From Candidatus Eiseniibacteriota bacterium (GTDB lineage: Bacteria > Eisenbacteria > RBG-16-71-46), in the NCBI GenBank assembly GCA_013140805.1, contig JABFRW010000033.1, forward strand, positions 245-64,244: DNA of 64,000 nucleotides, read 5' to 3'. The translations under genes and the position numbers were made by a program. Within the stretch, counting starts at the first letter, position 1, and each line of letters opens with the position of its first letter. Shown in pieces: positions 8,222 through 50,551 of this stretch. Under the pieces are notes generated by a model that worked only from the letters and a program-made list of their open reading frames with translations, searched no databases and was not told where the DNA came from.

Positions 8222-8327
8222 CGCGCCGCATCGTCGTGCAGGCATTCCACCCGCGTCAATCGCGGATGGCGCCTGTGCTAAGGTGCCCGCTTTCTCGCGA
8301 ATGATTCCCACTCTCGGAGCCCTCTCG

Positions 8328-9695: not shown

Positions 9696-9712
9696 AGCCG
9701 AGCCGCGACCCC

Positions 9713-11341: not shown

Positions 11342-11389
11342 GCCGAATCGGCGCGAATCCCGCACGCTTGCGGCGGCATCTGAGCGCAC

Positions 11390-11893: not shown

Positions 11894-11915
11894 TCCTCGA
11901 CTACCGTCCGGCCGC

Positions 11916-15634: not shown

Positions 15635-15660
15635 GGGGCGCGGGGGTACACTCTCCGGTC

Positions 15661-29057: not shown

Positions 29058-29233
29058 GAGGGCTCCGAGTCGACAGTCGGCGGCGGTGGAATCAGCCGAC
29101 AGAGATTGAAGGCACGCGGCGGCCCGGTCAATCCCGCTTTTTCGCTCGATGACGACCGCGCTCGAAGCAGCATCGGCAGTCGCGGCCATTCGAAGTATCC
29201 TGCCGCGTCGCCCGCCCCATGACCGGAGTCCTC

Positions 29234-31574: not shown

Positions 31575-31850
31575 GGGGGAGGTCCTCGATGCGAGTTGTG
31601 GTTGGGGCGCCCGGGGCAGCGGGGGCGCAGCAGTAGGGGTGTGCCGGATCGAAGCATGCGGCCGGACGACCGCCCGAGGCAATGGCGAAAGTCGGTGGCC
31701 AGGGCCGATGTTCGTCGAGCGGCATTCGCGCCCGACGCACTTGTCACGCCCCGGCACCCGTTCGCGGAAAACCGGCTGTCGGAGCCGCATTCGTGCCGTA
31801 AGCTTGCCCCTCTGCAAGACCGCGAGCGACTCCCAGGAGGAACGAAGACC

Positions 31851-33581
31851 ATGACCCCGATCCGACTTTCGCATGATGGGCTGAGCGTGCTTCGTGTTGC
31901 GCAACGCGCGCTCCTCGGATTCTCGATCGTCGGCAGCCTGATCTTCACGGCCGCACCCGGTTTCGCGGCCGGGCTACCGCTCGAGCGCCCCGACGATCCA
32001 CCGCTGCCGGCAGCCAAGGCTCCGCCGGGAGCTCGCAGTGCCGCGAACGTCAGCTTCGGGCGCTTCACGCACATTCAGGTCAACGTCAACGGCCTCGGCG
32101 CGAACATCCCCGGCGATGCGGCGAATGAGCCGTCGATCGCGGTCGATCCGAACGACCACAACCGCATGGCGATCGGGTGGCGGCAGTTCGACAACGTGGC
32201 TTCGAACTTTCGTCAGGCCGGCTTCGGATTCACCACCAATGGCGGACTCACCTGGACCGCCGGCAAGATCGAGCCCGGTGTGTTTCGGAGCGACCCGGTG
32301 CTTCACTCCGACGGCGCCGGCAATTTCTTCTACAACAGCCTGACCTCGACCTCGATCATCACCACGCAGCTGTTTCCGTCGACTGATGGCGGCGCGACGT
32401 GGGGTGCCTCGACGTTCGCGTTCGGCGGCGACAAACAGTGGATGACGATCGATCGCACCGGTGGACTGGGCCACGATCACATCTATCAGGCCTGGAGCAC
32501 CGCCGCGAATTCCTACGAACCCAACACCTTCAATCGATCCAACGATGACGGCGACACGTTCCAGTCGCCGAGCATCATTCCCGATTCGCCGGTGTGGGGA
32601 ACGCTCGACGTTGCGAGTGACGGCACGCTGTACGTGGTCGGCACCGAAGGACCTGGCGGACTGATCTTCGTCGCGCGCTCGACCGACGCGAAGAACGCGC
32701 TCGTGACGCCCACGTTCACGACCGTACCCGTCGACCTCGGTGGCTTCGTGCAGACCGGTGGGCCCAATCCGGCCGGACTGCTCGGCCAGCTGTGGGTCGC
32801 CGTCGACCGTTCGACCGGACCGCGCGCCGGCTGGATCTACGTGCTCGGATCGGTCCGGACCGAGAACGATCCGCTCGACGTGAACTTCATTCGCAGCACC
32901 GACGGCGGTCAGACCTGGAGCGTGCCGCTGCGGGTCAACGACGACCCGAGCGGCAATCGCGCATTCCAGTGGTTCGGGTCCATGTCGGTCTCACCGGAGG
33001 GCCGCATCGACGCGGTGTGGAATGACACGCGCGCTTCGGCGGACAGCACCAAGAGCGCGCTCTACTATTCGTATTCGACCGATGGCGGCTCGAGCTGGTC
33101 GGTGAACGAGCAGGCGAGCCCGATCTGGACCAGCACGGTCGGCTTTCCAAATCAGGCGAAAATCGGCGACTACTGCCACATGGTCTCGGACAGCGACGGC
33201 GCCGATCTCGCCTGGGCCGCCACCTTCAGCGGTGGCCAGGACGTCTACTACGTTCGCATTCCGAGTCTCGTGCCGGTCGCGGTCGCCGAGCCGCCGGGGC
33301 GTGGCGCGCGGCTGCACGCCGGCTCGCCGAATCCGTTCACCTCCGCGACCTCGATTCGTTTCGACGTGCCGCCGGCCGGCTCGCGCGTGAAGCTGGAGGT
33401 GTTCGATGCCGGCGGACATCGCGTCGCCACGCTGGTCGACGCGTTCGTGCCGGGAGGGACGCACCTCGCTCGCTGGGCAGGAGTCGACCGGTCGGGCCGC
33501 ACGATGAATGCGGGCGTGTACTTCGCTCGCTTCGAAGCCGACGGGCATCGGGAGTCTCGAAAGTTGATGTTGCTTCGATAG
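31851..33581 (+). CDS. Secreted BNR/Asp-box repeat protein (sialidase-like beta-propeller) with C-terminal sorting domain
   Basis: AGGAGG RBS. Four Asp-boxes (STDGGATW, SNDDGDTF, STDGGQTW, STDGGSSW). C-terminus ...AGVYFARFEADG.... Confidence 0.7.
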   Translation: MTPIRLSHDGLSVLRVAQRALLGFSIVGSLIFTAAPGFAAGLPLERPDDPPLPAAKAPPGARSAANVSFGRFTHIQVNVNGLGANIPGDAANEPSIAVDPNDHNRMAIGWRQFDNVASNFRQAGFGFTTNGGLTWTAGKIEPGVFRSDPVLHSDGAGNFFYNSLTSTSIITTQLFPSTDGGATWGASTFAFGGDKQWMTIDRTGGLGHDHIYQAWSTAANSYEPNTFNRSNDDGDTFQSPSIIPDSPVWGTLDVASDGTLYVVGTEGPGGLIFVARSTDAKNALVTPTFTTVPVDLGGFVQTGGPNPAGLLGQLWVAVDRSTGPRAGWIYVLGSVRTENDPLDVNFIRSTDGGQTWSVPLRVNDDPSGNRAFQWFGSMSVSPEGRIDAVWNDTRASADSTKSALYYSYSTDGGSSWSVNEQASPIWTSTVGFPNQAKIGDYCHMVSDSDGADLAWAATFSGGQDVYYVRIPSLVPVAVAEPPGRGARLHAGSPNPFTSATSIRFDVPPAGSRVKLEVFDAGGHRVATLVDAFVPGGTHLARWAGVDRSGRTMNAGVYFARFEADGHRESRKLMLLR

Positions 33582-35207: not shown

Positions 35208-37001
35208 ATGATCGTCGCTACTCGCCTGAGCCCGTCACCACGCCGCGGTGTCGCGCCGATTCGCAGGTTATCGCTGCTGTGGCTCGCGATCACCGGGCTT
35301 GCGCTCAGCGGGCTCGCGGCGGGCCCCGGTCGCGGCTTCGCTCAGGGCCACACCGATACTCGGCGGGTCGTTTCCTCGACTCCCGCCACGGCTGCAGCAC
35401 TCGCGGACACCGCACGGGTCCGCCGCTGGCGCGAGGAAGTGCGTGCGATCACTCAGCGGGTGAGGCACCAGCACCCGCGACCGTTCGCATTCAGCTCCGA
35501 AGCGGCATTCGACTCCTCGGCACGGGCGATCGAGGCGCGCATCGCCACCAGCGACGACGCACGGCTCGCGGTCGAGTGCATGCGCATGGTCGCGGCACTC
35601 GGAGACGCTCACACTCAGGTGATCGGCACCCTGCCGCCGCTCGGCTTCACGACCGTGCTGCCGATCGTGATGCGACCGTTCGAGGACGGGCTCTATGTGA
35701 CTGCCGCCGGTCCCGAATATGCCGCGTGGGTCGGGAGCAAGGTGACCCGCATCGGAGAGCTCGCAACCGACGACGCGCTCGCCCGAGTCGCCTCGGCGAC
35801 CAGCGCCGACAATCGCTACACGCAACTCGATCGAGCTCCGCTGTTCCTGATGATGCCGGCGCTGCTTCAAGCACTCGGAGTCGTCCCCGACCGCGATCGG
35901 GTGTCCCTCGAGATCGAGCGCGCGCCGGGAAAGCGCGAGCGCATCGTTGTCATCGGCGGGCCGCCGCCCGAGGGCTTTCCGTTCGCGTTTCTCGAGACCG
36001 AGCCGCCGATTCCGGCCGCCTGGACGAGTGCGCGCCGGGTGACGGCGAACGCACTGCCGCGCTGCGACCAGCGGCCCGAGTCGGCGTGGTGGTTCGAGGT
36101 GTTACCGGATTCGCGCGCCGTGTATCTGCGACTGCGTCGTATCGAGCCCATTTCGGGTGATCTCGCCTACTTCGAACTCTATCGACGCCTGTTCGCCGTG
36201 CTCGACAGCCTCAAGCCGTCCGCGCTGATCGTGGATCTGCGGCACGATCACGGCGGCAACAACACGATCCTCGATCCGCTGATCCGCGGCATCATCGCGC
36301 GGCCGTGGCTCGACCGGCAGGGTGCCCTGTTCGCGCTCATCGATCGCGGCACATTCTCGGCGGCGATGAACGCCGCGGTGTTCCTCGACGAGCGTACGCG
36401 TGCGCTCTTCATCGGGGAGCCGACCGGCGGCCGCGTCAATCACTACGGCGATGCGCCGGAACGGGACACACCGAACTTTGGAATGATGCTGCAGGTCTCG
36501 ACCGTGCCCTGGACGTCGCGGTTCCCGAACGATGATCGCGCGTGGATCGCACCCGAGCACGCGGTGCCGTCCACGTTCGCCGACTGGCGCGAAGCCAAGG
36601 ATCGCGCACTCGATTCGGCGCTCGAGGCGCTGCGGGAGGGTGCGCTTTCGCCGCGGGTGCTGGCCTCGGCGAAGCGCTCTGGAACCGAGGCGGCTCAGGC
36701 GACTTTCGAAGCCTGGAGAGCCGCTCATCCGAGCCCGTGGGAGACCGATCCACACGGCGATCTCGCCGGTTACTGCGCGGACCTCATCGAGGCCGGAGAG
36801 TGGCGCGATGCCGCGGTGCTGGGTGAGGTCATGGTGGCGCTCGACCCGCGCTCTTCGATCTCGTGGCGGCTGCTTGGCGAGGCTGCGGCGGCGAATGGAA
36901 ATCGCGCTCGCGCGGTCGAGTGCCTCAAAAAGACGCTCGAGATCAACCCCCGTGCCCAGGTCGCAGCGATGATGCTGCGCCGACTGGGCGAGAAGCCCTA
37001 G
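35208..37001 (+). CDS. Secreted S41-like serine peptidase with C-terminal TPR region
   Basis: GGAGG RBS. Signal peptide. DRGTFSAAMNAAVFL matches the S41 G-x-S-A-x nucleophile motif. VDLRHDHGGNN. C-terminal TPR-like helices. Confidence 0.6.
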   Translation: MIVATRLSPSPRRGVAPIRRLSLLWLAITGLALSGLAAGPGRGFAQGHTDTRRVVSSTPATAAALADTARVRRWREEVRAITQRVRHQHPRPFAFSSEAAFDSSARAIEARIATSDDARLAVECMRMVAALGDAHTQVIGTLPPLGFTTVLPIVMRPFEDGLYVTAAGPEYAAWVGSKVTRIGELATDDALARVASATSADNRYTQLDRAPLFLMMPALLQALGVVPDRDRVSLEIERAPGKRERIVVIGGPPPEGFPFAFLETEPPIPAAWTSARRVTANALPRCDQRPESAWWFEVLPDSRAVYLRLRRIEPISGDLAYFELYRRLFAVLDSLKPSALIVDLRHDHGGNNTILDPLIRGIIARPWLDRQGALFALIDRGTFSAAMNAAVFLDERTRALFIGEPTGGRVNHYGDAPERDTPNFGMMLQVSTVPWTSRFPNDDRAWIAPEHAVPSTFADWREAKDRALDSALEALREGALSPRVLASAKRSGTEAAQATFEAWRAAHPSPWETDPHGDLAGYCADLIEAGEWRDAAVLGEVMVALDPRSSISWRLLGEAAAANGNRARAVECLKKTLEINPRAQVAAMMLRRLGEKP

Positions 37002-37821: not shown

Positions 37822-38313
37822 TCAGCGTTCCGGCTTCCACGCCGCGCGCAGCTGGATCAGCACGCAGTAGAGCAGCGCCAGCGCTCCGATCGGGGCGAGG
37901 AAGATTCCGAGTCCGGGATCGCCCTCGTAGTGCTGGATTCCGCCGAGCAGAAAGCCGAGCGGCATCAGCACCGTGCCGGCGACCAACGCGCGCGAGGCGT
38001 GAAGCCGCTGCGTTGCGCCGAGGCTCGGAGCCTCGGCCCAGCGCACGTAGACGAGATTCAGCACCGAGAGCAGCGCGCCGTGAAAGTGTGCGAGCGTCAG
38101 GAACTCGCGACGCAGCGGGTCGAGCAGATAGCCGCCGAGCTTGAAGCCATGCGCGAGCTCGAGCACCAGGCCCAGGCACATCCACGCGAACAGCGAGGTC
38201 CAGCCGAAGCGACGATGAAGCAGGGCGAGCCGCTCCGCGGCCGCACCTTCGGGCCGTTGCTCCTTCGTCGAGGACTCGCCGCGTGGTTCCTTCCTGGCGC
38301 TCATGGGATTCAC
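37822..38313 (-). CDS. Small polytopic membrane protein, translationally coupled to the octaheme cytochrome
   Basis: Four predicted hydrophobic helices with conserved His residues (HGFKLGG, HFHGALL). The start overlaps, or lies within 5 nt of, the cytochrome stop. Confidence 0.55.
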   Translation of the reverse strand: MNPMSARKEPRGESSTKEQRPEGAAAERLALLHRRFGWTSLFAWMCLGLVLELAHGFKLGGYLLDPLRREFLTLAHFHGALLSVLNLVYVRWAEAPSLGATQRLHASRALVAGTVLMPLGFLLGGIQHYEGDPGLGIFLAPIGALALLYCVLIQLRAAWKPER

Positions 38314-40112
38314 TCTCCGATCGAAACCAGATGGTTGCTCTGCCGCGCGATCAGGCTCGTGATGACGTCACGCCTGGGCATGAACTCGGCATCGAGCGGG
38401 ACCGCCGCACCCGGGTGCGAGAGCCGTCGTTTGTCGAGCCCCTGCCACCACGACCACCACGATTGAAGCGCCGCGGTGCGAGCCGCCGGCTCGGCAAGAT
38501 AGTCGAACGGCGGCGACTTCGGAGCCGCCCCGATTGCCGACTCGCCGACCTCCGCACGTGCGCACAACTCGAGCAGCCCCCGATGGGCGAAGTGCCGCAC
38601 CGCGGGGTAGGGGTCCTCCATGGTCAGCAGCAGGAAGGGCACAGCCCACAGCCGCTGCGTGGGGTCCGAGGTGTACGAGCGGGCCTGCGCGAGTGCGTTC
38701 GCCGCCACCGCGCGCTGCACCACGTCGCCGCCGAACAACGAGCGGATGCTCTCTGCAGTCTCGAATGCGCGATCGCTCGGCTCGTCGTCGGGAGGCGGTG
38801 TACCGAACTGTCGCGCGGTCTCTCTCGCGGCCCAGATCGCGGTCCGATCGGTGTGGCACAACGTGCAGGCCTCCGGCATTTCGTTTCTCCACGCCCGCGC
38901 GGGTGCCGGGCTGGTGATGCGGTGGCTCGGGTGCACGGTCAGCAATCCGTAAGTGGTGGGCGGCATGTGGCAGGCGTAGCACTCGCTGCCCGAGCCCGCG
39001 GCCTCGTGCCCGGTGTGCTTCGACACGTTGCGACCGATCTCGGCGTGGCACTGCACGCAGCCGGCATTGCCGCGCATCGCCGGCTGGATCATGCCGCGCG
39101 GATCGCCGCCATGCATGTCGTGGCATGACATGCAGGTCAGGTCGCTCGAGCCGTGGCCCTCGGACGTCAGCAGTCCCTGGTACTCGTAGGCGGTGAGTCG
39201 CGGCGTCCCGTCGCTCCAGAATCGCTGGCTCAGATCGGTGCCGGCGAGTTCGGTGTGCGCGTCGATCGGCGTGGTGAAACGACTCAGGTCGTCGCCGGCC
39301 GTGTAGGGATCGCCGACCGTCATGAACTCGGCGATGCGCTCGCGCGGGTTCGGCAACCGCTGACCGTGGCAGTGGCCGCAGATCTGGATCTGCTGCATGC
39401 GCGGCAGCTCGCGCGGCGATCGGATCGTGGGGTCGCGGTCGCCGAGGTACAACAGGTAGCGCCGGAGCGGATCCCGGTTGCGACGAATGTGCAGATCCGC
39501 TGGACCGTGGCAGGCCTCGCACGCGATGCCCAGTTCGGCGACGCGAGCGTCGAAGGTATCGGTCTCGCGGTTCAGTCTCGGCTGAGCCTTCACGTTGTGG
39601 CAGAAGATGCAGTTGCTGTCCCAGTCGGTTCGATGGGCATTGAACGCGGTGGCGTCGGGATCGAGGAAGCCGCCGTTCAGATGGATCCACCGGCGTTCCT
39701 CGATGTTCCACGCGACCGGCAGGCGGACGTGCCGGTCGCCGACTCGCGTCACGTATTGCTGAATTCGACGCGAGCCGACCGTCATGGCGATCTCGTAGCG
39801 TTCCATGGTGTTCGCGGGAGACAACGTCTCGACGAAGAACCGCTCGCCGTCGCGCGTGAATCGCGACGTGACGCCCTGATAGGTGAGGCTCGCGTTCTCG
39901 AAATCGCCGACCACCGCAGTGGCGCGTGCAGGCTGAGTCATGGTGCGGTGGAAGGTGCGATGCCAGGTCTCGTAGCGCCCCGGGTGGCACATCACGCACT
40001 GCTCCGAGGTCGCATAGGCGACCTGCGGCAGTTCGACCGGCGTGCGCAGCTCGCCGGTGATTCGCGCGCCGATGGCGACCGTCGCTGCGAGGGCCGCGAG
40101 TGCGGCGATCAC
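38310..40112 (-). CDS. Octaheme c-type cytochrome (8 CxxCH) with C-terminal HEAT-like helical region; GTG start
   Basis: CVMCH, CIFCH, CEACH, CGHCH, CMSCH, CVQCH, CYACH and CTLCH. N-terminal signal/anchor IAALAALAATVAIGARITG. Confidence 0.8.
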   Translation of the reverse strand: MIAALAALAATVAIGARITGELRTPVELPQVAYATSEQCVMCHPGRYETWHRTFHRTMTQPARATAVVGDFENASLTYQGVTSRFTRDGERFFVETLSPANTMERYEIAMTVGSRRIQQYVTRVGDRHVRLPVAWNIEERRWIHLNGGFLDPDATAFNAHRTDWDSNCIFCHNVKAQPRLNRETDTFDARVAELGIACEACHGPADLHIRRNRDPLRRYLLYLGDRDPTIRSPRELPRMQQIQICGHCHGQRLPNPRERIAEFMTVGDPYTAGDDLSRFTTPIDAHTELAGTDLSQRFWSDGTPRLTAYEYQGLLTSEGHGSSDLTCMSCHDMHGGDPRGMIQPAMRGNAGCVQCHAEIGRNVSKHTGHEAAGSGSECYACHMPPTTYGLLTVHPSHRITSPAPARAWRNEMPEACTLCHTDRTAIWAARETARQFGTPPPDDEPSDRAFETAESIRSLFGGDVVQRAVAANALAQARSYTSDPTQRLWAVPFLLLTMEDPYPAVRHFAHRGLLELCARAEVGESAIGAAPKSPPFDYLAEPAARTAALQSWWSWWQGLDKRRLSHPGAAVPLDAEFMPRRDVITSLIARQSNHLVSIGE

Positions 40113-40205: not shown

Positions 40206-40892
40206 TCAGTCCCGCGTCGCGGCGCCGATCGACTCGAGTAATTCGCGGCCGGCCTGGATGACCTCGCTCGACCACTCGTGACCACCCACGAATGGGAGGC
40301 TTCGAACCTCGCAACCGCCCGTGCGCAGGAACTCGACGTCGGCCGCGAGCGCCGCGGGCGGATAGTAAGTGTCCAGCGTGCCGGTCGCTGCCACGATACG
40401 CGGATGTCGTGCGAGCGGAGCGTCCTTCAGTTCAGGCGGCAGGTCGCCGCCTGCCACCAGCAGGCCATCGCATGCGTGGCGCCCTCGGAACGCGGCCCGG
40501 TAGGCCATCGCGACGCCCTGCGAGAAGCCGGCGAACACACATGCGGTGAAGGGGCCGAACTCGCGCTGTAACTCGGCTCCCGCGGCGTCGACGTACGTGA
40601 GGTTGTCGGCGATTGCATGCTCGCGATCCTCGCGCGTCATCCAGTTCGCGACCACTTCGTCGGTGCGCAGTGCATAGAACGGATGGAGTGCCTGGACCGC
40701 GGCCACCAGCCAGGTGCCGGTGGGGTCGAGTGCCGCCAGCGAATCGAAGAACGAAGTCGCGCTCTGTCCGTAGCCGTGGAATCCGATCAGCGCCGGGCGC
40801 GGGCGCCCGCCACGTGCCGCGCGGACCAGCATCCGGCCGTGGACCGGGGTGCTCACGAGTCGCAATTGGGGAGCGGCGGGTTCAGTCGGCAT
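40206..40892 (-). CDS. Alpha/beta hydrolase (phospholipase/carboxylesterase family)
   Basis: GFSQG nucleophile elbow and an oxyanion region around LIGFHGYGQSA. Start moved to ATG 40892 (MPTEPAAPQ). Confidence 0.7.
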   Translation of the reverse strand: MPTEPAAPQLRLVSTPVHGRMLVRAARGGRPRPALIGFHGYGQSATSFFDSLAALDPTGTWLVAAVQALHPFYALRTDEVVANWMTREDREHAIADNLTYVDAAGAELQREFGPFTACVFAGFSQGVAMAYRAAFRGRHACDGLLVAGGDLPPELKDAPLARHPRIVAATGTLDTYYPPAALAADVEFLRTGGCEVRSLPFVGGHEWSSEVIQAGRELLESIGAATRD

Positions 40893-41017
40893 CGCGCGTC
40901 GCCTCGAGGGGTGTCGGGCGAGAATAACGGCGAGTCGGCCTGTTCGCCTCATGGGGCTCGGACGTAGTCGAGAGTGCAGCCGGCAGGTGCCGGCGGACAC
41001 CCCTCTGGAGGCTATGA

Positions 41018-43477
41018 ATGCATTCGCGATATGACGTTTCCATTCGAAGCGCGCTTCTCACCGTACTGGCGTTCGCGCTCGCCGCCGGCCCCGCACAGGC
41101 GGCGTGGCTCCCCGACGCCTACGTGGGCGGCTTTGGGTTGTCCACCACGACGGCGACCCACGCCAATCCGACCGCCATCGCGGACGGCGCCGGCGGCGTC
41201 ATCGTGGTGTGGCAGGACCAGCGCAATGGCGTCGATTACGACATCTACGCGCAGCGCATCAACGCGCGGGGTGACGCGCTGTGGACGGCGAACGGCGTCG
41301 CGGTGTGCAGCGCGACCAATGCCCAGATCCTTCCGGTCGTCACCTCCGACGGTGCCGGTGGCGCCATCATCGCGTGGCAGGACTTTCGCAATGGCAGCCA
41401 CTACGACGTGTTCGCTCAGCGCGTGAACGCGAACGGCACGACCGCGTGGACCGCCAGCGGCATCAACGTGTGCAACGCCGCCGGGATTCAGGAAGCGCTC
41501 GCCATCATCAGCGACGACGCGGGTGGCGCGATTCTGACCTGGCAGGACCTTCGATCGGGCGGGACCAACGACATCTACGCGCTTCGCGTGGGGCCGACCG
41601 GCACCTCGCTGTGGACCGCGAATGGACGAGCGGTGAGTGTGGCGGGTGGGTCGCAGCTGGCGCCGAGGCTGGCGTCCGACGGCGCCAATGGCGCGATCAT
41701 CAGCTGGCACGACCTGCGCGGCGCCAACTACGACATCTACGCGCAGCGCGTTCCCGCCAGCGGCATCCCGCAGTGGACGGCCGATGGCGTGTCGGTGTGC
41801 AACGCCGCGGGCAATCAGACGTCTTCGATGATCGTCTCCGACTATGTCGGCGGCGCGGTCATCACCTGGGATGACGCGCGCTCCGGCACCTCGGACATCT
41901 ATGCGCAGCGCGTGGGTCCGAACGGGACGACGCTGTGGGTCGCCAACGGCTCGGCGGTCTGCACCGCGACCAATGCGCAGGTCACGCCTTCGATCGCCAC
42001 CGACGGCTCGGGCGGTGCGATCATCGCGTGGACCGACTGGCGCGCGGTGGCCACCAACTCGCAGGACATCTATGCCCAGCGAGTGAACGCGGCAGGATTC
42101 ACGGCATGGACTTCCAACGGCGTGCCGCTCCACACCACCACGACCGGGGCCCAGATCGCCCCGGTGTGCGTGAGCTCGGACGGCCTCGGCGGTGCGATCA
42201 TCTCGTGGGCCGACTCCCGCAGCATGCTCAACTACGACGCCTACGCCCAGCGCGTGGGGCCCAACGGCACCCGCTACTGGAATGACGAAGCGCTGGTGAC
42301 CGGCGCGGTGCTCGATCAGTACGTCATCGCACTCGTGAGCGACGGCGCGCAGGGCGCCTACGCCGTGAGCATCGACAATCGCAATGGCGTGTTCAAGACC
42401 TACGCGCAGAAGCTCAATGCCAGCAGTTCGCTGGGTGACTGCACGCCGCGCATCGTGTCGGTGCGCGACGTTCCGAATGATCAGGGCAGCTTCGTCAACC
42501 TGCGTTTCGATCGCAGCCGGCTGGACCTCCAGATCGACGATAATTTCCAGGTCGATTACACGATCTGGCGCCAGGTCCCGAACGCCGCGGCACTCGCAGC
42601 GCTCAAGGGCGGTGCTCGGCTGCTGGCGGCCGGCGAGCGTGCGGAACGGGGCGGCGCCGATCGCGGGCTGCTGCGAAAGACGGTGGAGATGAACGGCGTC
42701 ACCTATTACTGGGAGCAGTGGGACTGGGTGGATGGTCGCGGCATTCCGAGCTACGGAGCCGTGCTCGAGACCACTTCGGACTCGCTGCCGAGCTCGAATC
42801 CGCGCACGCTGTACATGGTCGAGGCGCAGTCGTACGAGGACGGCGACTACTGGTACTACCAGTCAGCTCCCGACAGCGGCTACTCGGTCGACAATCTGCC
42901 GCCGGGTGCTCCGGGCTCGTTCGCGGCTCAGTACGCCGCGGGCACCACGCAGCTGCACTGGGCGCCGGTCGTGGCACCCGACTTCGCGGGCTACCGGCTC
43001 TATCGCGGCGGCACGCTGACGTTCACTCCCGGCCCCGGCAATCTGGTCCAGGCGGTGTCGGACACCGGCTACACCGACGCTGCGGGCGGGCCGTACGTCT
43101 ACAAGCTCACCGCGGTCGATCTGCACGGCAACGAATCGCCGATCGCGACCGTTGCGCCGACCGGCATCGTCGACGCGCCGCCTGCGGGTCCGGCGGTGTT
43201 CTTCCTGGGCGCGCCGGTTCCGAATCCAGCGCGCGCGAACCTCGGGGTGACGCTGCGCTTCGGGCTTGCCCGGCCGGGCGAGGCGCGAGTGCGCGTGTTC
43301 GATGCACAGGGTCGACTGGTGCGGACACTCGAGAGCGGGCCCCATGCCGCGGGCGAGCATGTGGCGCGCTGGGATGGACGAAACGATCACCACGTACCGC
43401 TCGCTGCGGGGCTCTACTTCGTGAGGCTCGAGGCCGAATCGCGAGTCGCGACCACGCGCGTGACGCTGCTGTGGTGA
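41018..43477 (+). CDS. Secreted repeat protein (paralog of 158-2194 / 2827-5241): 8 x ~50-aa repeats, DVPNDQG module, FN3-like module, C-terminal sorting domain
   Basis: Signal peptide MHSRYDVSIRSALLTVLAFALAAGPAQA. Repeat consensus DGAGGAIIAWQD.R.G..DIYAQRV...G...WT.NGV.VC. C-terminus ...AGLYFVRLEAES.... Confidence 0.8.
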   Translation: MHSRYDVSIRSALLTVLAFALAAGPAQAAWLPDAYVGGFGLSTTTATHANPTAIADGAGGVIVVWQDQRNGVDYDIYAQRINARGDALWTANGVAVCSATNAQILPVVTSDGAGGAIIAWQDFRNGSHYDVFAQRVNANGTTAWTASGINVCNAAGIQEALAIISDDAGGAILTWQDLRSGGTNDIYALRVGPTGTSLWTANGRAVSVAGGSQLAPRLASDGANGAIISWHDLRGANYDIYAQRVPASGIPQWTADGVSVCNAAGNQTSSMIVSDYVGGAVITWDDARSGTSDIYAQRVGPNGTTLWVANGSAVCTATNAQVTPSIATDGSGGAIIAWTDWRAVATNSQDIYAQRVNAAGFTAWTSNGVPLHTTTTGAQIAPVCVSSDGLGGAIISWADSRSMLNYDAYAQRVGPNGTRYWNDEALVTGAVLDQYVIALVSDGAQGAYAVSIDNRNGVFKTYAQKLNASSSLGDCTPRIVSVRDVPNDQGSFVNLRFDRSRLDLQIDDNFQVDYTIWRQVPNAAALAALKGGARLLAAGERAERGGADRGLLRKTVEMNGVTYYWEQWDWVDGRGIPSYGAVLETTSDSLPSSNPRTLYMVEAQSYEDGDYWYYQSAPDSGYSVDNLPPGAPGSFAAQYAAGTTQLHWAPVVAPDFAGYRLYRGGTLTFTPGPGNLVQAVSDTGYTDAAGGPYVYKLTAVDLHGNESPIATVAPTGIVDAPPAGPAVFFLGAPVPNPARANLGVTLRFGLARPGEARVRVFDAQGRLVRTLESGPHAAGEHVARWDGRNDHHVPLAAGLYFVRLEAESRVATTRVTLLW

Positions 43478-43571: not shown

Positions 43572-44294
43572 TCAGGGCGCGATCAGGACCCGGGCGCGCG
43601 AGGTCCCGAGCGTGTCGCCGGAGCGGACCGCGGCCACCTGCACCACGATCGTCTCGCCTGCAGGAAGCGTGAACGGCAGATTGGCGAGTGCCGAGTGGAA
43701 CGAAGTCGTCGACAGTGGGCCGAGCGTTCCGATCTCCTGCAGCTCGGGGGTGAAGATCCGCACCACGTAGCCTTCGGCATCAGAGACGCCGGCCCACTCG
43801 AGGTCGAGCCCGCCGACTCCCAGTTCGGCACGACCGAGCGCGAATTCGGCGATCGCGCGCTCGCCGCGCAGCACCGGCTCGCCGCCACGGGGTGCCGGTG
43901 TCATGGCGAGGCGAGGCCACACCGCGACCCCGCCGAGCACGAGTGCGAGAACCGCGAACGCGAGCGCCGGCCGCAGCGAGGGATGCAGCAGCCGCTCGAG
44001 CCACGAGAGTCCGGTCGCGTTCGCGCTTCGTTTTCCGGAGGTCGCGTCGGCGATCGGACGCGCGGAGGAGCCCGCAATCCCGGTCATCGAAGCGACGACC
44101 TCGTCGAGTCGGGCGGCGGCACGCGCGACGTGATCGGACTGCAGCTCGGAGCCCGGCGAGAGGAACAACCGGTAGCTCTCGAGAAGCGAGGAGCAGCGTG
44201 GACAGTCTCGCGCATGCCGGCGGCGCGGGTCCGACTCCGAAAGGGCGAAGACCTCGGCCAGCGCCTCGGGCTCGAAGCAGTCCTTCGACTTCAT
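43572..44294 (-). CDS. Anti-sigma factor, ZAS-type zinc finger, single TM, periplasmic C-domain
   Basis: AGGGAGGG RBS. The H-x3-C-x2-C motif RHARDCPRC and the TM helix LRPALAFAVLALVLGGVAVW are present. ATGA overlap with the upstream ECF sigma gene. Confidence 0.65.
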   Translation of the reverse strand: MKSKDCFEPEALAEVFALSESDPRRRHARDCPRCSSLLESYRLFLSPGSELQSDHVARAAARLDEVVASMTGIAGSSARPIADATSGKRSANATGLSWLERLLHPSLRPALAFAVLALVLGGVAVWPRLAMTPAPRGGEPVLRGERAIAEFALGRAELGVGGLDLEWAGVSDAEGYVVRIFTPELQEIGTLGPLSTTSFHSALANLPFTLPAGETIVVQVAAVRSGDTLGTSRARVLIAP

Positions 44295-44881
44295 GACACC
44301 GCCCTCCCTGATTCCTCGAGCGCCGCCCGCAATCGCCGCCGCGCCCGCTGCAACAGGGCTCGCGCGCCGGTGGCGTTCTCGAGCCCCATCACCTTCGTGA
44401 TCGATTCGACCGAGAGCCGCTCGATGCATCGCAACCACAGCGCGCGCCGCTCGGCCTCGTCGAGCTTGTCCATCATGAGCTGCCGCAACCGTTCTTCGTC
44501 CTCGGCTCGCTCGTAGGCTGCATCGGGCGCTGCCGCCGGATGCTCGGCGGCGTCGGGGTCGGCGTCCTCATCCACGAGCAACGCCGGTGCCGAGACCGCC
44601 TTGAGACAACAATTCCGCGCAATCACGAACAGCCATGACGAGAACCGCGACCGACCCTCGAACGACGACATCGCGCGATACGCGCGCAGCAGCACGTCCT
44701 GCGTCAGATCCATGGCGCGGTCCGGATCCCGTACGTAGCGGAAACACCACAAGTAGACCTGGCGATGGTAGCGACGCAACAACTCGGAAGCCGCCTCACG
44801 GCTGCCGACACTGTCCGGATCGCGAGCCGCGATCCGCAGCAGTGTTTCGTCATCTCGCTCGCGGGTCGCAGAACCCGTCAT
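44291..44881 (-). CDS. ECF (sigma-70 family group 4) RNA polymerase sigma factor
   Basis: Region 2 (...RYHRQVYLWCFRYVRDPDRAMDLTQDVLLRAYRAMSSF...) and region 4 (...SVESITKVMGLENATGARALLQRARRRLR...) are both present. Confidence 0.8.
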   Translation of the reverse strand: MTGSATRERDDETLLRIAARDPDSVGSREAASELLRRYHRQVYLWCFRYVRDPDRAMDLTQDVLLRAYRAMSSFEGRSRFSSWLFVIARNCCLKAVSAPALLVDEDADPDAAEHPAAAPDAAYERAEDEERLRQLMMDKLDEAERRALWLRCIERLSVESITKVMGLENATGARALLQRARRRLRAALEESGRAVS

Positions 44882-44909
44882 GCAGTGAGAGCCCCCGTGG
44901 GGCCGGAAA

Positions 44910-47714
44910 TCACACCGGGATCCCGGAAAGGCGCCGGCGGTCCCTCGAGGTCCAGGCGAGGAGCAGCGAGAGGAGCGCCGACACCCCGCCAGCATAAGCC
45001 GCAACCCGGTTCGGCAGAAGGGGATGCATTCGGACCGGAACCCCGAGTGCCGCGTCGCCCAGCAGCACGAATCCGGACCAGTAGAACGGGTGGACGGTGC
45101 GCGGATCGGCCCGCACCGAGCGCTGCGCCCGGGCGAGCGCCCGACCGGCATCGTCGCCCAGCGTCAGCCGTTCGTAAAAGCGCCGCACGATGCGGGAGGT
45201 GGCCTGATCGTCGACTGGCCACAGGCTCGCGACCACCGCCGGCGAGCCGGCCGCCAGGAACGCACTCGCGAGGCCTGCGACACCTTCCCCGGAGCGCACT
45301 CGATTGCCGACCGAGGCGCAGCTCGCGAGCACCACGAGATCGGCATCGAGCGAGAGCTTCGCGATCTCACCGGCGGTCAGCATCTCGCCGTCGGCTCCGC
45401 GCAGTCCCGGCAGCCGCGTTTGCCAGGGGCGCAGATCGTCCGGCTGCGTGTGACCCGCGAAGTGAACGATCGCGGTACCCGCCAGATCGGCGACCACCCC
45501 GCCTCGTCCGAGTACGCGTGCCTGATTGAGGTGGGCGCCGATCCACGCCAGCTCGGAGCGCGCGCCCGCGAGCCGAAGTGAAGAGTCGCGAGCGCCGAGT
45601 GCCACCACGCCGCGTTGCCGCACCTGCGTGCGACCGCGCGCGATGCGCCGCAGATCGGCGAGCAGCGAGGCGGCCGGCAGGACGCTCACTTCGCGCTGGG
45701 CGAGCAGCGGCTCCGGGCCGGTCCCGAGATCGACCATCAAGGCTCCGACCGGAACCAGATGCAGCGCATCGTCCCCGATCACGAATACCCGCGACTGGGT
45801 CGCGAGCAGATCGCGCACCGGATCGAGCAGCCGGGCGCCGAGTGTCGCGAGCACCCGACGGGTCGCGAGGGAATCGAGTCGCACCTCGCCCGCAGGCTGT
45901 GAAATGACGTCGCGCGCCAGTGCGAGCTGACGCCACAGCCCGCGCGGCGGCAACGTGACCAGCCGGCAGGAGTCTCGCGTCACCGCGAACAGCCACGCAT
46001 GATCCGCGGCGATGAAGAAGTCCAGCAGCAGCTCACCGGGCGCCAGGGTTTCGAGCTGCAGCGTCGCGAGCTTGACCGGCTGGAGCCCCGCGCGGTCCGC
46101 GCGGCGGCTCGGACGCGGGCCGAAGGTGCGTTCGATCAGCGTGCGGGCCTTGAATCGCTGCAGGCGGTCGAAGGCGAGCTCCGTCCGACGGGCCGCGCTG
46201 CCTGACTCGCCCACGATGGTCAGCGCGAGCCACTCGCTCGCCAGCGTGCGCGATTCGATCGCCAGGGTCTCCCGCCACTCGGCGGCCGAACTGCGGCTGC
46301 GCCCCGACTCCCACGACGTGACCGCGGAATCGAGCAACGCCAGTGCCGCCACCGTGTGGCCGCGATCGCGTTCGACGCGGGCCAGCATCGTGAGGGCATT
46401 CGCGATGACGAAGCCCTCGGCGATCGTGCGGCCCCCGGTGAGTGCCCGTTCGGACCAGCGTCGACACGCGGCTGCGTGACCGAGACGGTACTCGGCCTCG
46501 GCGAGCACCAGATGCTGCCACGCGAGAAACGCGATCCCGATCTTGCCTTCGAACGAGTTGAGATGGCGTGCGATCAGTGCACGCGCGCTGTCGGGCTGGT
46601 TCATGGCGAGGAACGTCATCCCCAGTCGCGTGACCGCGATCGCGCGCACGTCGATCTGCGCCGACGGCTCGTCCATCGCGGCGCTGAATGCGGTCGCGGC
46701 CTCGCGCAGTCGCCCCTGCTCGGCTCGCACCCGGCCGATCTGGCTCAGCACCATCGGAATCTGCGGCCGAAGCCCGTTGTCGCGGCATGCGGTCAGCAAC
46801 GTGTCGAGCAGCGCGAGCGCTTCGTTCGATCGGCCCAGCGTGGCGAGCGAAGAGGCGAGATCGGCACCCGGGTACGCCGCCTGCGAGAACAGTCCGAGCC
46901 GTCGATAGGTTTCGTACGAGGCACGCTGGTATTCAGCGGCGAGCGACAGATCGCCGCCGGTGGTCTCGATCATCGCAAGGTTGCCGAGCGCGTGGGCGAT
47001 ATAGGCCGACTGCACATGGATGCGGCTCAGCTCGAGCGCGCGCAGGTTCGAGCTCCGCGCGGCTCGATAGTTGCCGAGGCCGAATTCGGAACGTCCGAGT
47101 CCGAGGCGCGCGAGGATCTCGCCATTCGGCTCATCGAGCGCCGCCAGCGAATCGGCGGCGCGCGCATATTCGTCGCGGGCCCGCCGGAAGTCGCCGTCGA
47201 TCACCGCGTACCAGCCGAACGAAATGTGTGCGCGTGCGTCGTGGACTCGATCGCCGATGCTGCGGGCCAGACGCTGCATGCGCTCGGCCACCGGACGGGC
47301 CTGGCTGATGCGACCCTGCTGCTGGAGCGCGAAATCTTTCCAGCGCAGCGCATTCACCAGCGTGAGCGTGTCGCGAAGTCGTTCCGCGAGCTGCACCGCT
47401 TCGTCGATGGCGGCGGCTCCGAGCGTCACGTCACCGCGGCGAATGCGAAGCTGGCCCTCGCGCCGCAGCAACCACAGCACGGCGATCGAGTCGCGCCCCG
47501 CGCGGGCGCTGCGCAGGTGGGGGGCGAGCAGCGTCAGCACCTGCTCATGAGCGCCGGCTTCGTAAAGCGAGTCGGTATGGCGTGCGACTGATTCGAGCCC
47601 ACGCCCGGCAGGGGCAGGCCTCGCGTCCGCGGCCGCATGGGCGCCGGTCGGCATGGCTCCGGCGACCAGCAGCGCGATGGCGAGAGAGAGCGGGAGGGCC
47701 ACGCGAGCAGTCAC
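44910..47714 (-). CDS. Secreted TPR-repeat protein with C-terminal CHAT (caspase-like) peptidase domain and C-terminal hydrophobic anchor
   Basis: Signal peptide MTARVALPLSLAIALLVAGAMPTGAHA. Multiple TPR-like helical repeats. The CHAT dyad context is IVHFAGHT ... LVVLASCAS. Terminal hydrophobic stretch AAYAGGVSALLSLLLAW. Confidence 0.8.
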   Translation of the reverse strand: MTARVALPLSLAIALLVAGAMPTGAHAAADARPAPAGRGLESVARHTDSLYEAGAHEQVLTLLAPHLRSARAGRDSIAVLWLLRREGQLRIRRGDVTLGAAAIDEAVQLAERLRDTLTLVNALRWKDFALQQQGRISQARPVAERMQRLARSIGDRVHDARAHISFGWYAVIDGDFRRARDEYARAADSLAALDEPNGEILARLGLGRSEFGLGNYRAARSSNLRALELSRIHVQSAYIAHALGNLAMIETTGGDLSLAAEYQRASYETYRRLGLFSQAAYPGADLASSLATLGRSNEALALLDTLLTACRDNGLRPQIPMVLSQIGRVRAEQGRLREAATAFSAAMDEPSAQIDVRAIAVTRLGMTFLAMNQPDSARALIARHLNSFEGKIGIAFLAWQHLVLAEAEYRLGHAAACRRWSERALTGGRTIAEGFVIANALTMLARVERDRGHTVAALALLDSAVTSWESGRSRSSAAEWRETLAIESRTLASEWLALTIVGESGSAARRTELAFDRLQRFKARTLIERTFGPRPSRRADRAGLQPVKLATLQLETLAPGELLLDFFIAADHAWLFAVTRDSCRLVTLPPRGLWRQLALARDVISQPAGEVRLDSLATRRVLATLGARLLDPVRDLLATQSRVFVIGDDALHLVPVGALMVDLGTGPEPLLAQREVSVLPAASLLADLRRIARGRTQVRQRGVVALGARDSSLRLAGARSELAWIGAHLNQARVLGRGGVVADLAGTAIVHFAGHTQPDDLRPWQTRLPGLRGADGEMLTAGEIAKLSLDADLVVLASCASVGNRVRSGEGVAGLASAFLAAGSPAVVASLWPVDDQATSRIVRRFYERLTLGDDAGRALARAQRSVRADPRTVHPFYWSGFVLLGDAALGVPVRMHPLLPNRVAAYAGGVSALLSLLLAWTSRDRRRLSGIPV

Positions 47715-50414: not shown

Positions 50415-50551
50415 TCGGCCTCCGAGGGTGGGAACGTAGAGGCCGGAGACCTTAGCGCAGGCTCCGCTCGTCGTCATTCGGGAATCGAGCGCCCCTCGCG
50501 CGTCATTCCGTGCTTGACGGCTGCCCGCCGGCGCACGCAGTGTGACCCGCC

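What the first reader, a model, noticed from the sequence alone, without database searches (positions are those of the whole stretch)
37822..40112. Octaheme c-type cytochrome translationally coupled to a small 4-helix membrane protein
Eight CxxCH motifs are spread over ~600 aa with long inter-heme spacers, followed by HEAT-like helices. The gene is immediately followed, with overlapping or 5-nt-spaced stop/start, by a 163-aa polytopic protein with conserved His residues, which may be a heme-b or quinone-interacting anchor. I cannot place the cytochrome in a named family (OTR/HAO/MccA-like spacing is not evident), so this may be an uncharacterised respiratory or extracellular electron-transfer module.
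Basis: partly seen in the sequence, partly recalled or inferred. Interest (0 to 1): 0.55.

Follow-up and report, generated by a model that had tools for sequence, protein, structure and literature searches.

The report
Uncharacterised octaheme cytochrome with membrane partner
A real, widely conserved two-gene unit encodes a periplasmic eight-heme cytochrome distantly related to nitrite/sulfite-reductase-type cytochromes, plus a small four-helix membrane protein from an undescribed family; nobody has studied its function.

Summary
ORF 38310-40112(-) encodes a 600-aa protein with eight CxxCH motifs; 20,000 shuffles gave at most two. A 160/163-aa four-helix membrane protein starts 5 nt after its stop, or overlaps it by 4 nt.

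The window comes from a Candidatus Eisenbacteria MAG. The cytochrome can be placed. It belongs to the NrfA multiheme superfamily, and its nearest solved relative is the nonaheme OcwA (profile E 4.6e-12, collinear). It has an MccA-like eight-heme layout that lacks the NrfA-type active-site heme, a beta-sheet domain between hemes 1 and 2, a HEAT-like C-terminal domain, and a universal C-terminal Glu. It fails the defining features of MccA, NrfA, OTR and HAO.

The family occurs in about 270 species of at least seven phyla, mostly aerobic soil heterotrophs. The small gene lies directly downstream in 54 of 77 informative loci. It has no Pfam family but about 850 clusters of relatives, with a near-invariant HxH in TM2 and E/H/D residues near the periplasmic face. 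Its fold resembles styrene oxide isomerase and a four-helix part of heme-copper oxidase subunit I, but sequence homology to either is not significant.

My best reading is a membrane-bound redox module whose small subunit carries a cofactor and links the heme chain to the membrane. The substrate is unknown. This is a new variant of a known kind, of moderate interest.

The parts
38310..40112 (-). Octaheme c-type cytochrome gene (600 aa, GTG start; stop at 38310-38312)
   Evidence: ORF list. Eight CxxCH motifs. 100% identical to NOT33225.1. All 16 heme cysteines and 8 proximal His are invariant in 51 homologues and at least 98% conserved in 86.
40044..40112 (-). N-terminal hydrophobic helix (residues 1-23), probably a signal anchor that places the protein in the periplasm
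   Evidence: AF2 helix 2-23. Homologues have a basic n-region followed by about 20 hydrophobic residues, with no lipobox. Anchor versus cleaved signal peptide is an inference.
39366..39998 (-). N-terminal heme module, hemes 1-4 (residues 39-249), including the invariant heme-2 motif W164-D-x-N-C-I-F-C-H-N173
   Evidence: Alignments. Pfam Cytochrome_C554 hit at 161-203. Collinear with OcwA hemes 1-3.
39681..39938 (-). Beta-sheet domain inserted between heme 1 and heme 2 (residues 59-144), with the universal R115-R116-x-Q118-Q119-Y120 motif
   Evidence: AF2 strands 59-144, pLDDT above 90. Conservation. OcwA and MccA share such a beta-sheet domain (PMC6703420); equivalence is inferred, not superposed.
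38853..39134 (-). C-terminal heme module, hemes 5-8 (residues 327-420), with four universal distal-His candidates (H334, H366, H369, H397)
   Evidence: Pfam Paired_CXXCH_1 and Cytochrome_C7. Aligns with OcwA hemes 6-9. Conservation.
38349..38771 (-). HEAT-like helical C-terminal domain (about residues 448-588)
   Evidence: AF2 helices. Sub-threshold Pfam HEAT/HEAT_2 in 16 and 8 of 51 members. Universal D463, R467, D500, Y502, R506.
38313..38321 (-). Universal C-terminal tail I-G-E-COOH (family pattern: hydrophobic-x-hydrophobic-x-Glu)
   Evidence: Kept with all four Gly codons, and also where no small gene follows. It is therefore a protein-level constraint and not a by-product of the ribosome-binding site.
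38315..38318 (-). GGAG ribosome-binding site for the small gene, inside the last codons of the cytochrome gene
   Evidence: Read directly from the sequence; 10 nt upstream of ATG 38304.
37822..38304 (-). Small four-helix membrane protein gene (160 aa from ATG 38304; 163 aa if GTG 38313 is used). Residue numbers in this report follow the 163-aa ORF.
   Evidence: ORF list. NOT33224.1. 521 homologues. 849 representative clusters. AF2 pLDDT 89.
38080..38088 (-). H76-F-H78 (LAHFHG) motif in TM2, about 5-8 residues below the periplasmic membrane boundary
   Evidence: Invariant; 99% conserved in 134 distant representatives. Topology.

Best explanation
This is a two-subunit, membrane-bound, periplasm-facing redox module.

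The large subunit is an octaheme c-type cytochrome of the NrfA superfamily, in the OcwA/OmhA/MccA/c554 clade. An N-terminal helix holds it at the membrane. It has four hemes in a c554-like N-terminal module and four in an NrfA-like C-terminal module, and it lacks the NrfA-type catalytic heme. This is the heme layout seen in MccA.

The small subunit is made from the same transcript by coupled translation. It is a four-helix membrane protein with a conserved cluster near the periplasmic face: E52 and H55 in TM1, H76-x-H78 in TM2, D132-P133 in loop 3, and glycine-rich helix faces. I infer that this cluster holds a redox cofactor, most likely heme b. I also infer that the small subunit connects the heme-c chain electrically to the membrane quinone pool, the role that NrfH, cM552 or MccD play for related enzymes. 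Chemistry on a small periplasmic substrate most likely happens at heme 2, which is the open heme in c554, MccA and OcwA.

Shown: family placement, heme count and order, gene coupling, conservation and distribution.

Inferred: complex formation, the cofactor in the small subunit, the link to quinone, catalysis at heme 2, and the direction of electron flow. The substrate is unknown.
For: Cytochrome:
- Eight CxxCH motifs.
- PF02335 above the gathering score, and hit in 41 of 51 members.
- The profile matches OcwA at E 4.6e-12, with heme 1, hemes 2-3 and hemes 5-8 aligned in order to OcwA hemes 1, 2-3 and 6-9. It also matches OmhA at 3.8e-5 and NrfA at 1.7e-4.
- There is a beta domain between hemes 1 and 2, as reported for OcwA and MccA.
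- Over 86 sequences the C-terminal module has four universal non-motif His for its four hemes. The N-terminal module has only H55, H208 and M58 for its four hemes, and H144 and H160 are lost in distant subfamilies. This leaves one N-module heme without a universal distal ligand.
- The heme-2 motif WDxNCIFCHN and the RRxQQY motif are universal.

Partner:
- The small gene is directly downstream in 54 of 77 informative loci, and within 90 nt in 50 of them. These loci span Eisenbacteria, Acidobacteriota, Chloroflexota, Myxococcota, Verrucomicrobiota and Planctomycetota.
- Adjacency also holds in distant subfamilies.
- HxH is 99% conserved, E52 93%, D132 93%, and P118/G120/F121 98-99%.
- All of these residues lie in the periplasmic half of the protein.
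- The fold resembles the heme-b-binding four-TM styrene oxide isomerase (TM-score 0.62-0.65) and cytochrome bo3 subunit I (0.57-0.59).
- No other gene is conserved around the pair.
Against: - No cofactor or quinone site has been demonstrated.
- The small family has no significant sequence similarity to any heme-b or quinone-binding family: Pfam gives nothing, the PDB profile search gives nothing, and hhalign gives E 0.08-0.24.
- The small gene is absent within 8 kb in 23 of 77 loci. These include a Blastocatellia/Chloracidobacterium subclade and the Gammaproteobacteria. One distant small gene stands alone.
- The cytochrome has its own membrane helix, so it does not need an anchor.
- In the window's own subfamily there are nine invariant non-motif His plus Met58 for eight hemes, so every heme could be six-coordinate and non-catalytic.
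- Foldseek found no significant whole-chain match for the cytochrome.
Confidence: 0.45

Rival explanations
1. The cytochrome is a pure electron-transfer wire. All eight hemes are six-coordinate, and the protein only relays electrons between the membrane and other periplasmic or extracellular partners, with no catalysis of its own. The HEAT-like domain and the C-terminal tail dock those partners.
For: The window's subfamily has nine invariant non-motif His plus M58 for eight hemes. The HEAT-like domain is a typical protein-protein interaction module. The closest solved relative, OcwA, is a terminal reductase in extracellular electron transfer.
Against: No porin, outer-membrane cytochrome or other redox partner is conserved near the pair. 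H144, H160 and H394 are not universal in the wider family. The invariant polar residues around heme 2 and in the beta domain look like a substrate pocket. The hosts are mostly aerobic heterotrophs that are not known metal reducers (host lifestyle is from my own knowledge).
Confidence: 0.2
2. The small protein is the catalytic subunit. It forms an oligomeric four-helix membrane enzyme whose heme or metal site, built from HxH, Glu, His and Asp, acts on a membrane-soluble or gaseous substrate. The octaheme cytochrome is its dedicated electron donor or acceptor.
For: The best fold matches are styrene oxide isomerase, a trimeric four-TM enzyme with catalytic heme b ligated by a TM2 histidine, and heme-copper oxidase subunit I. 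hhalign places LAHFHG on the helix X motif AHFH, whose two His ligate the two hemes of the oxidase. The small family is very large (849 clusters) and at least as conserved as the cytochrome.
Against: The hhalign E-values are 0.08-0.18, which is not significant. His-on-His matches drive the register, so the motif match is not independent evidence. There is no profile similarity to SOI. Pfam COX1 is never hit. Only four helices are present, and there is no CuB-type His triad in the oxidase positions.
Confidence: 0.12
3. The small protein is a non-redox accessory, such as a membrane tether, an assembly or stability factor, or a signalling partner for the cytochrome.
For: It can be missing next to the cytochrome in whole clades, and the cytochrome has its own membrane helix. 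Some loci carry two-component regulators nearby.
Against: Near-invariant His, Glu and Asp residues and glycine stripes inside the membrane are unusual for a mere tether. The nearby regulators are not consistent across loci.
Confidence: 0.18
4. The two genes are neighbours by chance and are not functionally linked.
For: 23 of 77 loci lack the small gene. One small gene was found away from any cytochrome. The one apparent fusion protein turned out to be a frameshift artefact.
Against: The order and strand are the same, with a gap of 90 nt or less, in 50 loci from six phyla, and also in distant subfamilies. No other neighbour is conserved.
Confidence: 0.03

Closest known systems
OcwA (Thermincola potens nonaheme cytochrome, PDB 6i5b) and OmhA (6qvm)
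   Same: Best sequence relatives among solved structures (E 4.6e-12 and 3.8e-5). The order of heme motifs is collinear. The CHxxH, H..H and CHMP...SH ligand patterns of the C-terminal module are shared. Both have an insertion between hemes 1 and 2, where OcwA has its beta-sheet domain. Both end in a helical C-terminal region.
   Different: This protein has eight hemes, not nine. The equivalent of OcwA heme 5, the NrfA-type open heme, is missing. OcwA is a cell-surface protein of a monoderm with no membrane partner. Here there is an N-terminal membrane helix, a HEAT-like domain instead of a plain three-helix bundle, a universal C-terminal Glu, and a four-TM partner.
MccA (octaheme sulfite reductase, PDB 4rkm)
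   Same: The same inferred heme layout (a c554-like 1-4 module plus four C-terminal hemes, without the NrfA active-site heme) and a beta-sheet domain. It belongs to the same clade 3 in PMC9250108.
   Different: There is only a marginal sequence hit (E 0.18, heme 1 only). All motifs are CxxCH, so there is no CX15CH. No extra conserved cysteines exist for the Cu(I) site. No MccB/C/D genes are nearby.
NrfA/NrfH and cytochrome c554/cM552 (multiheme enzyme plus membrane quinol-dehydrogenase partner)
   Same: The logic is the same: a periplasmic multiheme protein of this superfamily encoded next to a small membrane subunit. Pfam PF02335 is above threshold.
   Different: There is no CXXCK heme, and there are eight hemes, not five. 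The partner has no CxxCH and is not of the NapC/NirT or NrfD type.
Styrene oxide isomerase StyC (PDB 8pnu)
   Same: Similar size (about 160-170 aa), four TM helices, and the best TM-score for the small protein (0.62/0.65, probability 0.96). In SOI a TM2 histidine ligates heme b at a subunit interface.
   Different: There is no sequence or profile similarity. The SOI catalytic residues are not recognisable. The genomic context is different (the sty operon versus a multiheme cytochrome).
Heme-copper oxidase subunit I, helices IX-XII
   Same: Foldseek probability 0.90-0.98 and TM-score 0.57-0.59 to E. coli CyoB. The LAHFHG motif matches the helix X motif AHFH in the only hhalign alignment found. 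UniRef auto-names the protein 'Cbb3-type cytochrome c oxidase subunit I'.
   Different: The protein has four helices, not twelve, and no CuB ligands. The profile comparison is not significant (E 0.08-0.18), and Pfam COX1 is never hit. Homology is not established.

Membership tests
NrfA multiheme superfamily, clade 3 (OcwA/OmhA/MccA/c554; Soares et al. 2022) | Detectable sequence relationship to solved members | tested here: met
   Profile versus PDB: OcwA 4.6e-12, OmhA 3.8e-5, NrfA 1.7e-4. PF02335 scores 32 bits against a cut-off of 24.1.
NrfA multiheme superfamily, clade 3 (OcwA/OmhA/MccA/c554; Soares et al. 2022) | Collinear heme-motif order with an N-terminal c554-like module and a C-terminal four-heme module | tested here: met
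   Three collinear HMMER segments match OcwA hemes 1, 2-3 and 6-9.
NrfA multiheme superfamily, clade 3 (OcwA/OmhA/MccA/c554; Soares et al. 2022) | Five-coordinate heme in the N-terminal module (second heme) | tested here: inconclusive
   Only H55, H208 and M58 are universal distal candidates for hemes 1-4. H144 and H160 are present in the window's subfamily but lost in distant ones. I had no coordinates or spectroscopy.
NrfA multiheme superfamily, clade 3 (OcwA/OmhA/MccA/c554; Soares et al. 2022) | Conserved heme-core geometry (superposable heme packing) | not testable with these tools
Foldseek on the whole chain gave no significant hit.
MccA sulfite reductase | Heme 8 bound through a CX15CH motif | tested here: not met
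   All eight motifs are CxxCH.
MccA sulfite reductase | Cu(I) site formed by two extra conserved cysteines at heme 2 | tested here: not met
   There are 17 Cys in all. Sixteen are in heme motifs, and the 17th (C525) is not conserved.
MccA sulfite reductase | mccB/C/D partner genes | tested here: not met
   The neighbours are an alpha/beta hydrolase, a FlgD_ig protein and DUF1801. No such cluster appears in 83 loci.
NrfA pentaheme nitrite reductase / ONR | CXXCK (Lys-ligated) catalytic heme | tested here: not met
   There is no CxxCK. The position of OcwA heme 5 / NrfA heme 1 has no heme motif.
NrfA pentaheme nitrite reductase / ONR | NrfH or NrfBCD partner | tested here: not met
   The partner has no CxxCH and no Pfam or NCBIfam match.
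OTR (octaheme tetrathionate reductase) and HAO/IhOCC | Sequence relationship to 1sp3, 1fgj or 4qo5 | tested here: not met
   None of these appears among the PDB hits up to E = 1 (sequence search) or 0.1 (profile search).
Heme-copper oxidase subunit I (small protein as a free four-helix module) | Significant sequence or profile similarity | tested here: not met
   hhalign gives E 0.077 against CyoB and 0.18 against a nine-sequence HCO alignment. Pfam COX1 is hit by 0 of 60 members.
Heme-copper oxidase subunit I (small protein as a free four-helix module) | Fold similarity and an HxH heme-ligand motif in a TM helix near the P side | tested here: inconclusive
   Foldseek TM-score 0.57-0.59 and probability 0.90-0.98, but E 0.5-1.4. 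The motif is present and 99% conserved.
Styrene oxide isomerase (StyC) | Sequence or profile similarity, including H58/N64/Y103 | tested here: not met
   hhalign gives E 0.24 over 10 columns against a four-sequence StyC alignment.
Styrene oxide isomerase (StyC) | Four-TM fold with heme b at a trimer interface | tested here: inconclusive
   The monomer fold has TM-score 0.62/0.65. Oligomer state and heme binding could not be tested.

The most novel reading that the evidence does not exclude
The small protein is a free-standing relative of the four-helix unit from which heme-copper oxidase subunit I is built (helices IX-XII). It oligomerises and uses its helix-X-like HxH, together with the nearby Glu, His and Asp, to hold heme b and possibly a non-heme metal. 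Fed by the octaheme chain, it forms a minimal membrane O2, NO or peroxide reductase in aerobic soil bacteria. That would make it a living analogue of a pre-fusion ancestor of respiratory oxidases.
Probability: 0.06. Interest if true: 0.9.

Novelty: new variant of a known kind. Interest (0 to 1): 0.55.

Why it matters
Every characterised member of the NrfA/MccA/OcwA superfamily catalyses a key step of the nitrogen, sulfur or iron cycle.

This family is found in about 270 species representatives. They include abundant soil lineages (Udaeobacter/Chthoniobacterales, Blastocatellia, Myxococcaceae, Eisenbacteria, Planctomycetota) that are mostly regarded as aerobic heterotrophs. No function is assigned to it, and its membrane partner is absent from Pfam.

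If it is an enzyme, it would add an unrecognised redox reaction to these organisms. Candidates are N-oxide, S-oxide or peroxide turnover, or substrate oxidation feeding the quinone pool. If the partner proves to be a cofactor-binding four-helix module related to oxidase subunit I or SOI, it would also bear on how membrane heme enzymes evolved.

Culturable hosts (Stigmatella aurantiaca, Hyalangium, Marinicella litoralis) make it directly testable.

Tried and rejected
1. Fusion evidence. A 687-aa protein (P0265) looked like a cytochrome-small fusion. The +1 frame of the 1.79x-coverage contig restores the canonical C-terminus '...PVEISE*', so it is a frameshift artefact.

2. C-terminal IGE as a by-product of the downstream Shine-Dalgarno site. 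Rejected: all four Gly codons occur, and the motif persists where no small gene follows.

3. Homology of the small protein to heme-copper oxidase subunit I. hhalign against CyoB and against a nine-sequence alignment gave E 0.08-0.18, and Pfam COX1 was never hit. I keep this only as a fold and motif resemblance.

4. Homology to styrene oxide isomerase. StyC sequences fetched from plasmids showed no profile similarity.

5. Whole-chain Foldseek of the cytochrome against the PDB. No significant hit. Heme proteins are mostly loops, so this says little.

6. Conserved third genes. All-against-all clustering of ORFs from 83 loci found none. Giant S8 subtilases recur in about 17 loci but are only 26-28% identical to each other, and none is in the window.

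7. Sequence features of the cytochrome that track presence or absence of the partner. No column discriminates.

8. Sigma-70 promoter and terminator scans around the operon. Nothing above background.

9. Literature. I found no paper on this family. The Ardenticatena heptaheme ARMA_0580 could not be linked to it.
Full report
**Observation**

The minus-strand ORF 38310-40112 encodes 600 aa. CxxCH motifs start at residues 39, 168, 198, 245, 327, 352, 378 and 416. Twenty thousand shuffles of the same residues never gave more than two, and no other six-frame segment of the window has more than one. The protein is identical to NOT33225.1 from a Candidatus Eisenbacteria MAG, and the next gene is NOT33224.1.

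The cytochrome stop (TGA, 38312-38310) overlaps a GTG at 38313. It is followed after 5 nt by an ATG at 38304. A GGAG at 38318-38315 sits 10 nt upstream of that ATG, so the 160-aa reading is the likelier one.

The region has about 67% G+C, with GC3 of 0.84-0.85 in both ORFs. The many antisense ORFs are the usual high-GC artefacts.

**The cytochrome**

Pfam gives Paired_CXXCH_1, Cytochrome_C7, Cytochrome_C554 and Cytochrom_C552 (PF02335, the NrfA family), all above their gathering scores. NCBIfam gives only sub-threshold hits to decaheme and NrfB families.

A profile of 51 homologues searched against all PDB sequences finds the nonaheme OcwA of Thermincola potens (6i5b) at E 4.6e-12. It then finds OmhA (6qvm) at 3.8e-5 and NrfA (2j7a, 2vr0) at about 2e-4. 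The OcwA match comes in three collinear pieces:
- heme 1 of the query with heme 1 of OcwA;
- hemes 2-3 with hemes 2-3;
- hemes 5-8 with OcwA hemes 6-9.

The 80 residues between the query's hemes 4 and 5 have no heme motif where OcwA carries its heme 5, the NrfA-type open heme. According to the OcwA paper (PMC6703420) and Soares et al. 2022 (PMC9250108), this layout is the one seen in MccA: a c554-like tetraheme module plus four C-terminal hemes. OcwA, OmhA, MccA and c554 form one clade, whose open heme is the second one.

The AF2 model (pLDDT 88.5, pTM 0.88) shows these parts:
- an N-terminal helix (residues 2-23);
- a beta-sheet domain between hemes 1 and 2 (residues 59-144), a feature OcwA and MccA are reported to share;
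- heme-binding loops;
- an all-helical C-terminal domain from about residue 448.

Sub-threshold HEAT or HEAT_2 hits occur in 16 and 8 of 51 members. Whole-chain Foldseek gave nothing significant.

**Membership**

The protein is not an MccA: it has no CX15CH, no extra conserved cysteines for the Cu site, and no mccBCD genes. It is not an NrfA or ONR, because it has no CXXCK. It shows no sequence relationship to OTR, HAO or IhOCC. It is a separate, uncharacterised family within clade 3.

**Ligand bookkeeping**

In the 51 closest homologues, nine non-motif His (55, 144, 160, 208, 334, 366, 369, 394, 397) and Met58 are invariant.

Over 86 sequences that include 35-45%-identity clades and a distant subfamily, only H55, M58, H208, H334, H366, H369 and H397 remain universal. 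The C-terminal module thus has four universal His for its four hemes. The N-terminal module has two His and one Met for its four hemes.

This fits one N-module heme being open or variably ligated, and by analogy that would be heme 2. However, the window's own subfamily could have all hemes six-coordinate. The heme-2 motif W164-D-x-N-C-I-F-C-H-N173 and the beta-domain motif R115-R116-x-Q118-Q119-Y120 are universal, and they look like a pocket for a polar or anionic substrate. That last point is an inference.

**An unexpected universal feature**

Every family member ends in hydrophobic-x-hydrophobic-x-Glu-COOH (IGE, VGE, LAE, LRE, ISE). This holds with any Gly codon, and whether or not a small gene follows. 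It is a protein-level constraint whose role is unknown.

**The small protein**

It has no Pfam or NCBIfam family and no PDB sequence relative. There are 521 homologues in the word-indexed search. The exhaustive search found 849 clusters at 50% identity with E of 1e-3 or better, nearly all of them stand-alone proteins of 125-215 aa.

AF2 (pLDDT 89.4) gives four long helices. Charge distribution places the N-terminus and loop 2 in the cytoplasm, and loops 1 and 3 in the periplasm.

Across 134 distant representatives the conserved positions are:
- H76 and H78 (99%; the usual motif is LAHAHG, here LAHFHG);
- E52 (93%) and H55 (83%) in TM1;
- D132-P133 in loop 3 (93-98%);
- G48, G79, and P118/G120/F121/G124/G125.

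All of these lie in the periplasmic half of the protein. Three His, two carboxylates and glycine stripes are what one expects of a heme or metal site, but none has been shown.

Foldseek's best TM-scores are to styrene oxide isomerase (8pnu, 0.62/0.65, probability 0.96) and to E. coli cytochrome bo3 subunit I (0.57-0.59, probability 0.90-0.98), all with E above 0.4. SOI is a four-TM trimer that binds heme b through a TM2 histidine at subunit interfaces (PMC11374702).

UniRef's automatic name for the small protein is 'Cbb3-type cytochrome c oxidase subunit I'. I tested homology in two ways:
- hhalign against CyoB, and against a nine-sequence oxidase alignment built from tool-retrieved genes, puts LAHFHG on the helix X motif AHFH and puts TM3-4 on helices XI-XII. 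The E-values are only 0.08-0.18.
- hhalign against four StyC sequences finds nothing.

Both resemblances are therefore at the level of fold and motif only.

**Linkage**

A motif scan of one genome per GTDB species found 271 species with a relative of the cytochrome. The best 80 loci come from Eisenbacteria, Acidobacteriota, Chloroflexota, Myxococcota, Verrucomicrobiota, Planctomycetota and Gammaproteobacteria.

The small gene is on the same strand, directly downstream, in 54 of the 77 loci that have enough flanking sequence. In 50 of these the first aligned residue lies within 90 nt of the stop. Three of four sampled distant small-protein representatives also sit right after a multiheme cytochrome, and one stands alone.

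The gene is missing within 8 kb in a Blastocatellia/Chloracidobacterium subclade, which also carries H144N, H394K and M383R, and in Marinicella and the Lysobacterales. The one apparent fusion protein is a frameshift artefact.

Clustering all neighbouring ORFs found no third conserved gene. In the window, the upstream alpha/beta hydrolase (40206-41000) and the divergent FlgD_ig protein are not conserved partners.

**Mechanism**

Related enzymes of this superfamily are wired to the quinone pool by a small membrane subunit (NrfH, cM552, MccD). That statement rests on established knowledge of those systems.

By analogy, and given the coupling, the conservation and the periplasm-side cluster, I favour a two-subunit module in which the small protein carries a cofactor and links the heme-c chain to the membrane, with chemistry at heme 2. 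I put this at 0.45.

The rivals are:
- a non-catalytic wire (0.2);
- the small protein as the catalytic heme/metal subunit (0.12);
- a non-redox accessory (0.18);
- chance adjacency (0.03).

Substrate and direction of electron flow are unknown. The hosts are mostly aerobic proteolytic heterotrophs (my own knowledge of those lineages), and the window itself is rich in peptidases. This argues against a classical anaerobic respiration and for detoxification or an auxiliary redox reaction. That is speculation.

**Verdict**

The finding is real and correctly described. The cytochrome can be placed in a known superfamily but not in any characterised family, and its partner belongs to an undescribed family. 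This is a new variant of a known kind, with interest of about 0.55.

Noticed in passing
L001, L003, L004, L006, L009, L010, L017-L020, L023, L024, L028, L031, L042, L058, L080 (for example L001:1931-7687, L004:2778-7607): Giant secreted S8 subtilases (900-2,500 aa, with MAM, BACON or FlgD_ig domains) lie next to the cytochrome pair in about 17 of 83 loci from four phyla, often divergently transcribed directly upstream. They are only 26-28% identical to each other, and none is in this window. This could be a real functional association, or it could reflect how common such proteases are in these genomes.
   Followed up: partly
window 38313-38321 and the C-termini of all homologues: Every member of the cytochrome family ends in hydrophobic-x-hydrophobic-x-Glu-COOH, independent of codon choice and of the presence of the downstream gene. 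I do not know what this tail does.
   Followed up: partly
window 61209-62909 (-): A 566-aa ORF has a single CxxCH and a hit above threshold to the hydrazine synthase alpha-subunit middle domain (PF18582, 31.5 bits vs 26.6). It is a monoheme protein of unknown role in a non-anammox organism.
   Followed up: no
window 2827-5241, 26532-29189, 31362-33581, 41018-43477: Four large secreted proteins (an M28 peptidase, a BNR/sialidase-like protein and two repeat proteins) end in a FlgD_ig domain. tblastn shows further copies near 167-421 and 16798-16965. This looks like a lineage-specific C-terminal sorting or anchoring domain in Eisenbacteria.
   Followed up: no
window 43572-47714 (-): An ECF-type sigma factor (44291-45151), a putative anti-sigma membrane protein (43572-44438) and a 934-aa TPR-CHAT protein (44910-47714) sit together on the minus strand. 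This is possibly a regulated protease or signalling module.
   Followed up: no
window 7887-17007, 26532-29189, 35208-37001, 48696-50600, 54171-55706, 58279-60354: The window is dense in peptidases (M20 twice, S9, M28, S41, M32, M48) and has an OPT oligopeptide transporter, which points to a proteolytic lifestyle. An F-type ATP synthase operon lies at about 18.5-25 kb.
   Followed up: no
L030-L039 (Blastocatellia/Chloracidobacterium subclade): The cytochrome subclade that lacks the adjacent small gene carries a correlated set of substitutions (H144N, H394K, M383R, M341L). This suggests a paralogous subfamily with a different heme ligation, possibly including a Lys ligand.
   Followed up: partly
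L087:3616-5679: A public 687-aa 'fusion' protein of cytochrome and small protein is a frameshift artefact of a 1.79x-coverage long-read contig.
   Followed up: yes
L096:1537-1704 (Peribacillus 'plasmid' NZ_CP110133.1): An unannotated 55-aa ORF is nearly identical in motif to mitochondrial COX1 helix IX-X (VVAHFHYVLSMGAVF). It is probably a contaminant or a fragment, and it is unrelated to the finding.
   Followed up: no
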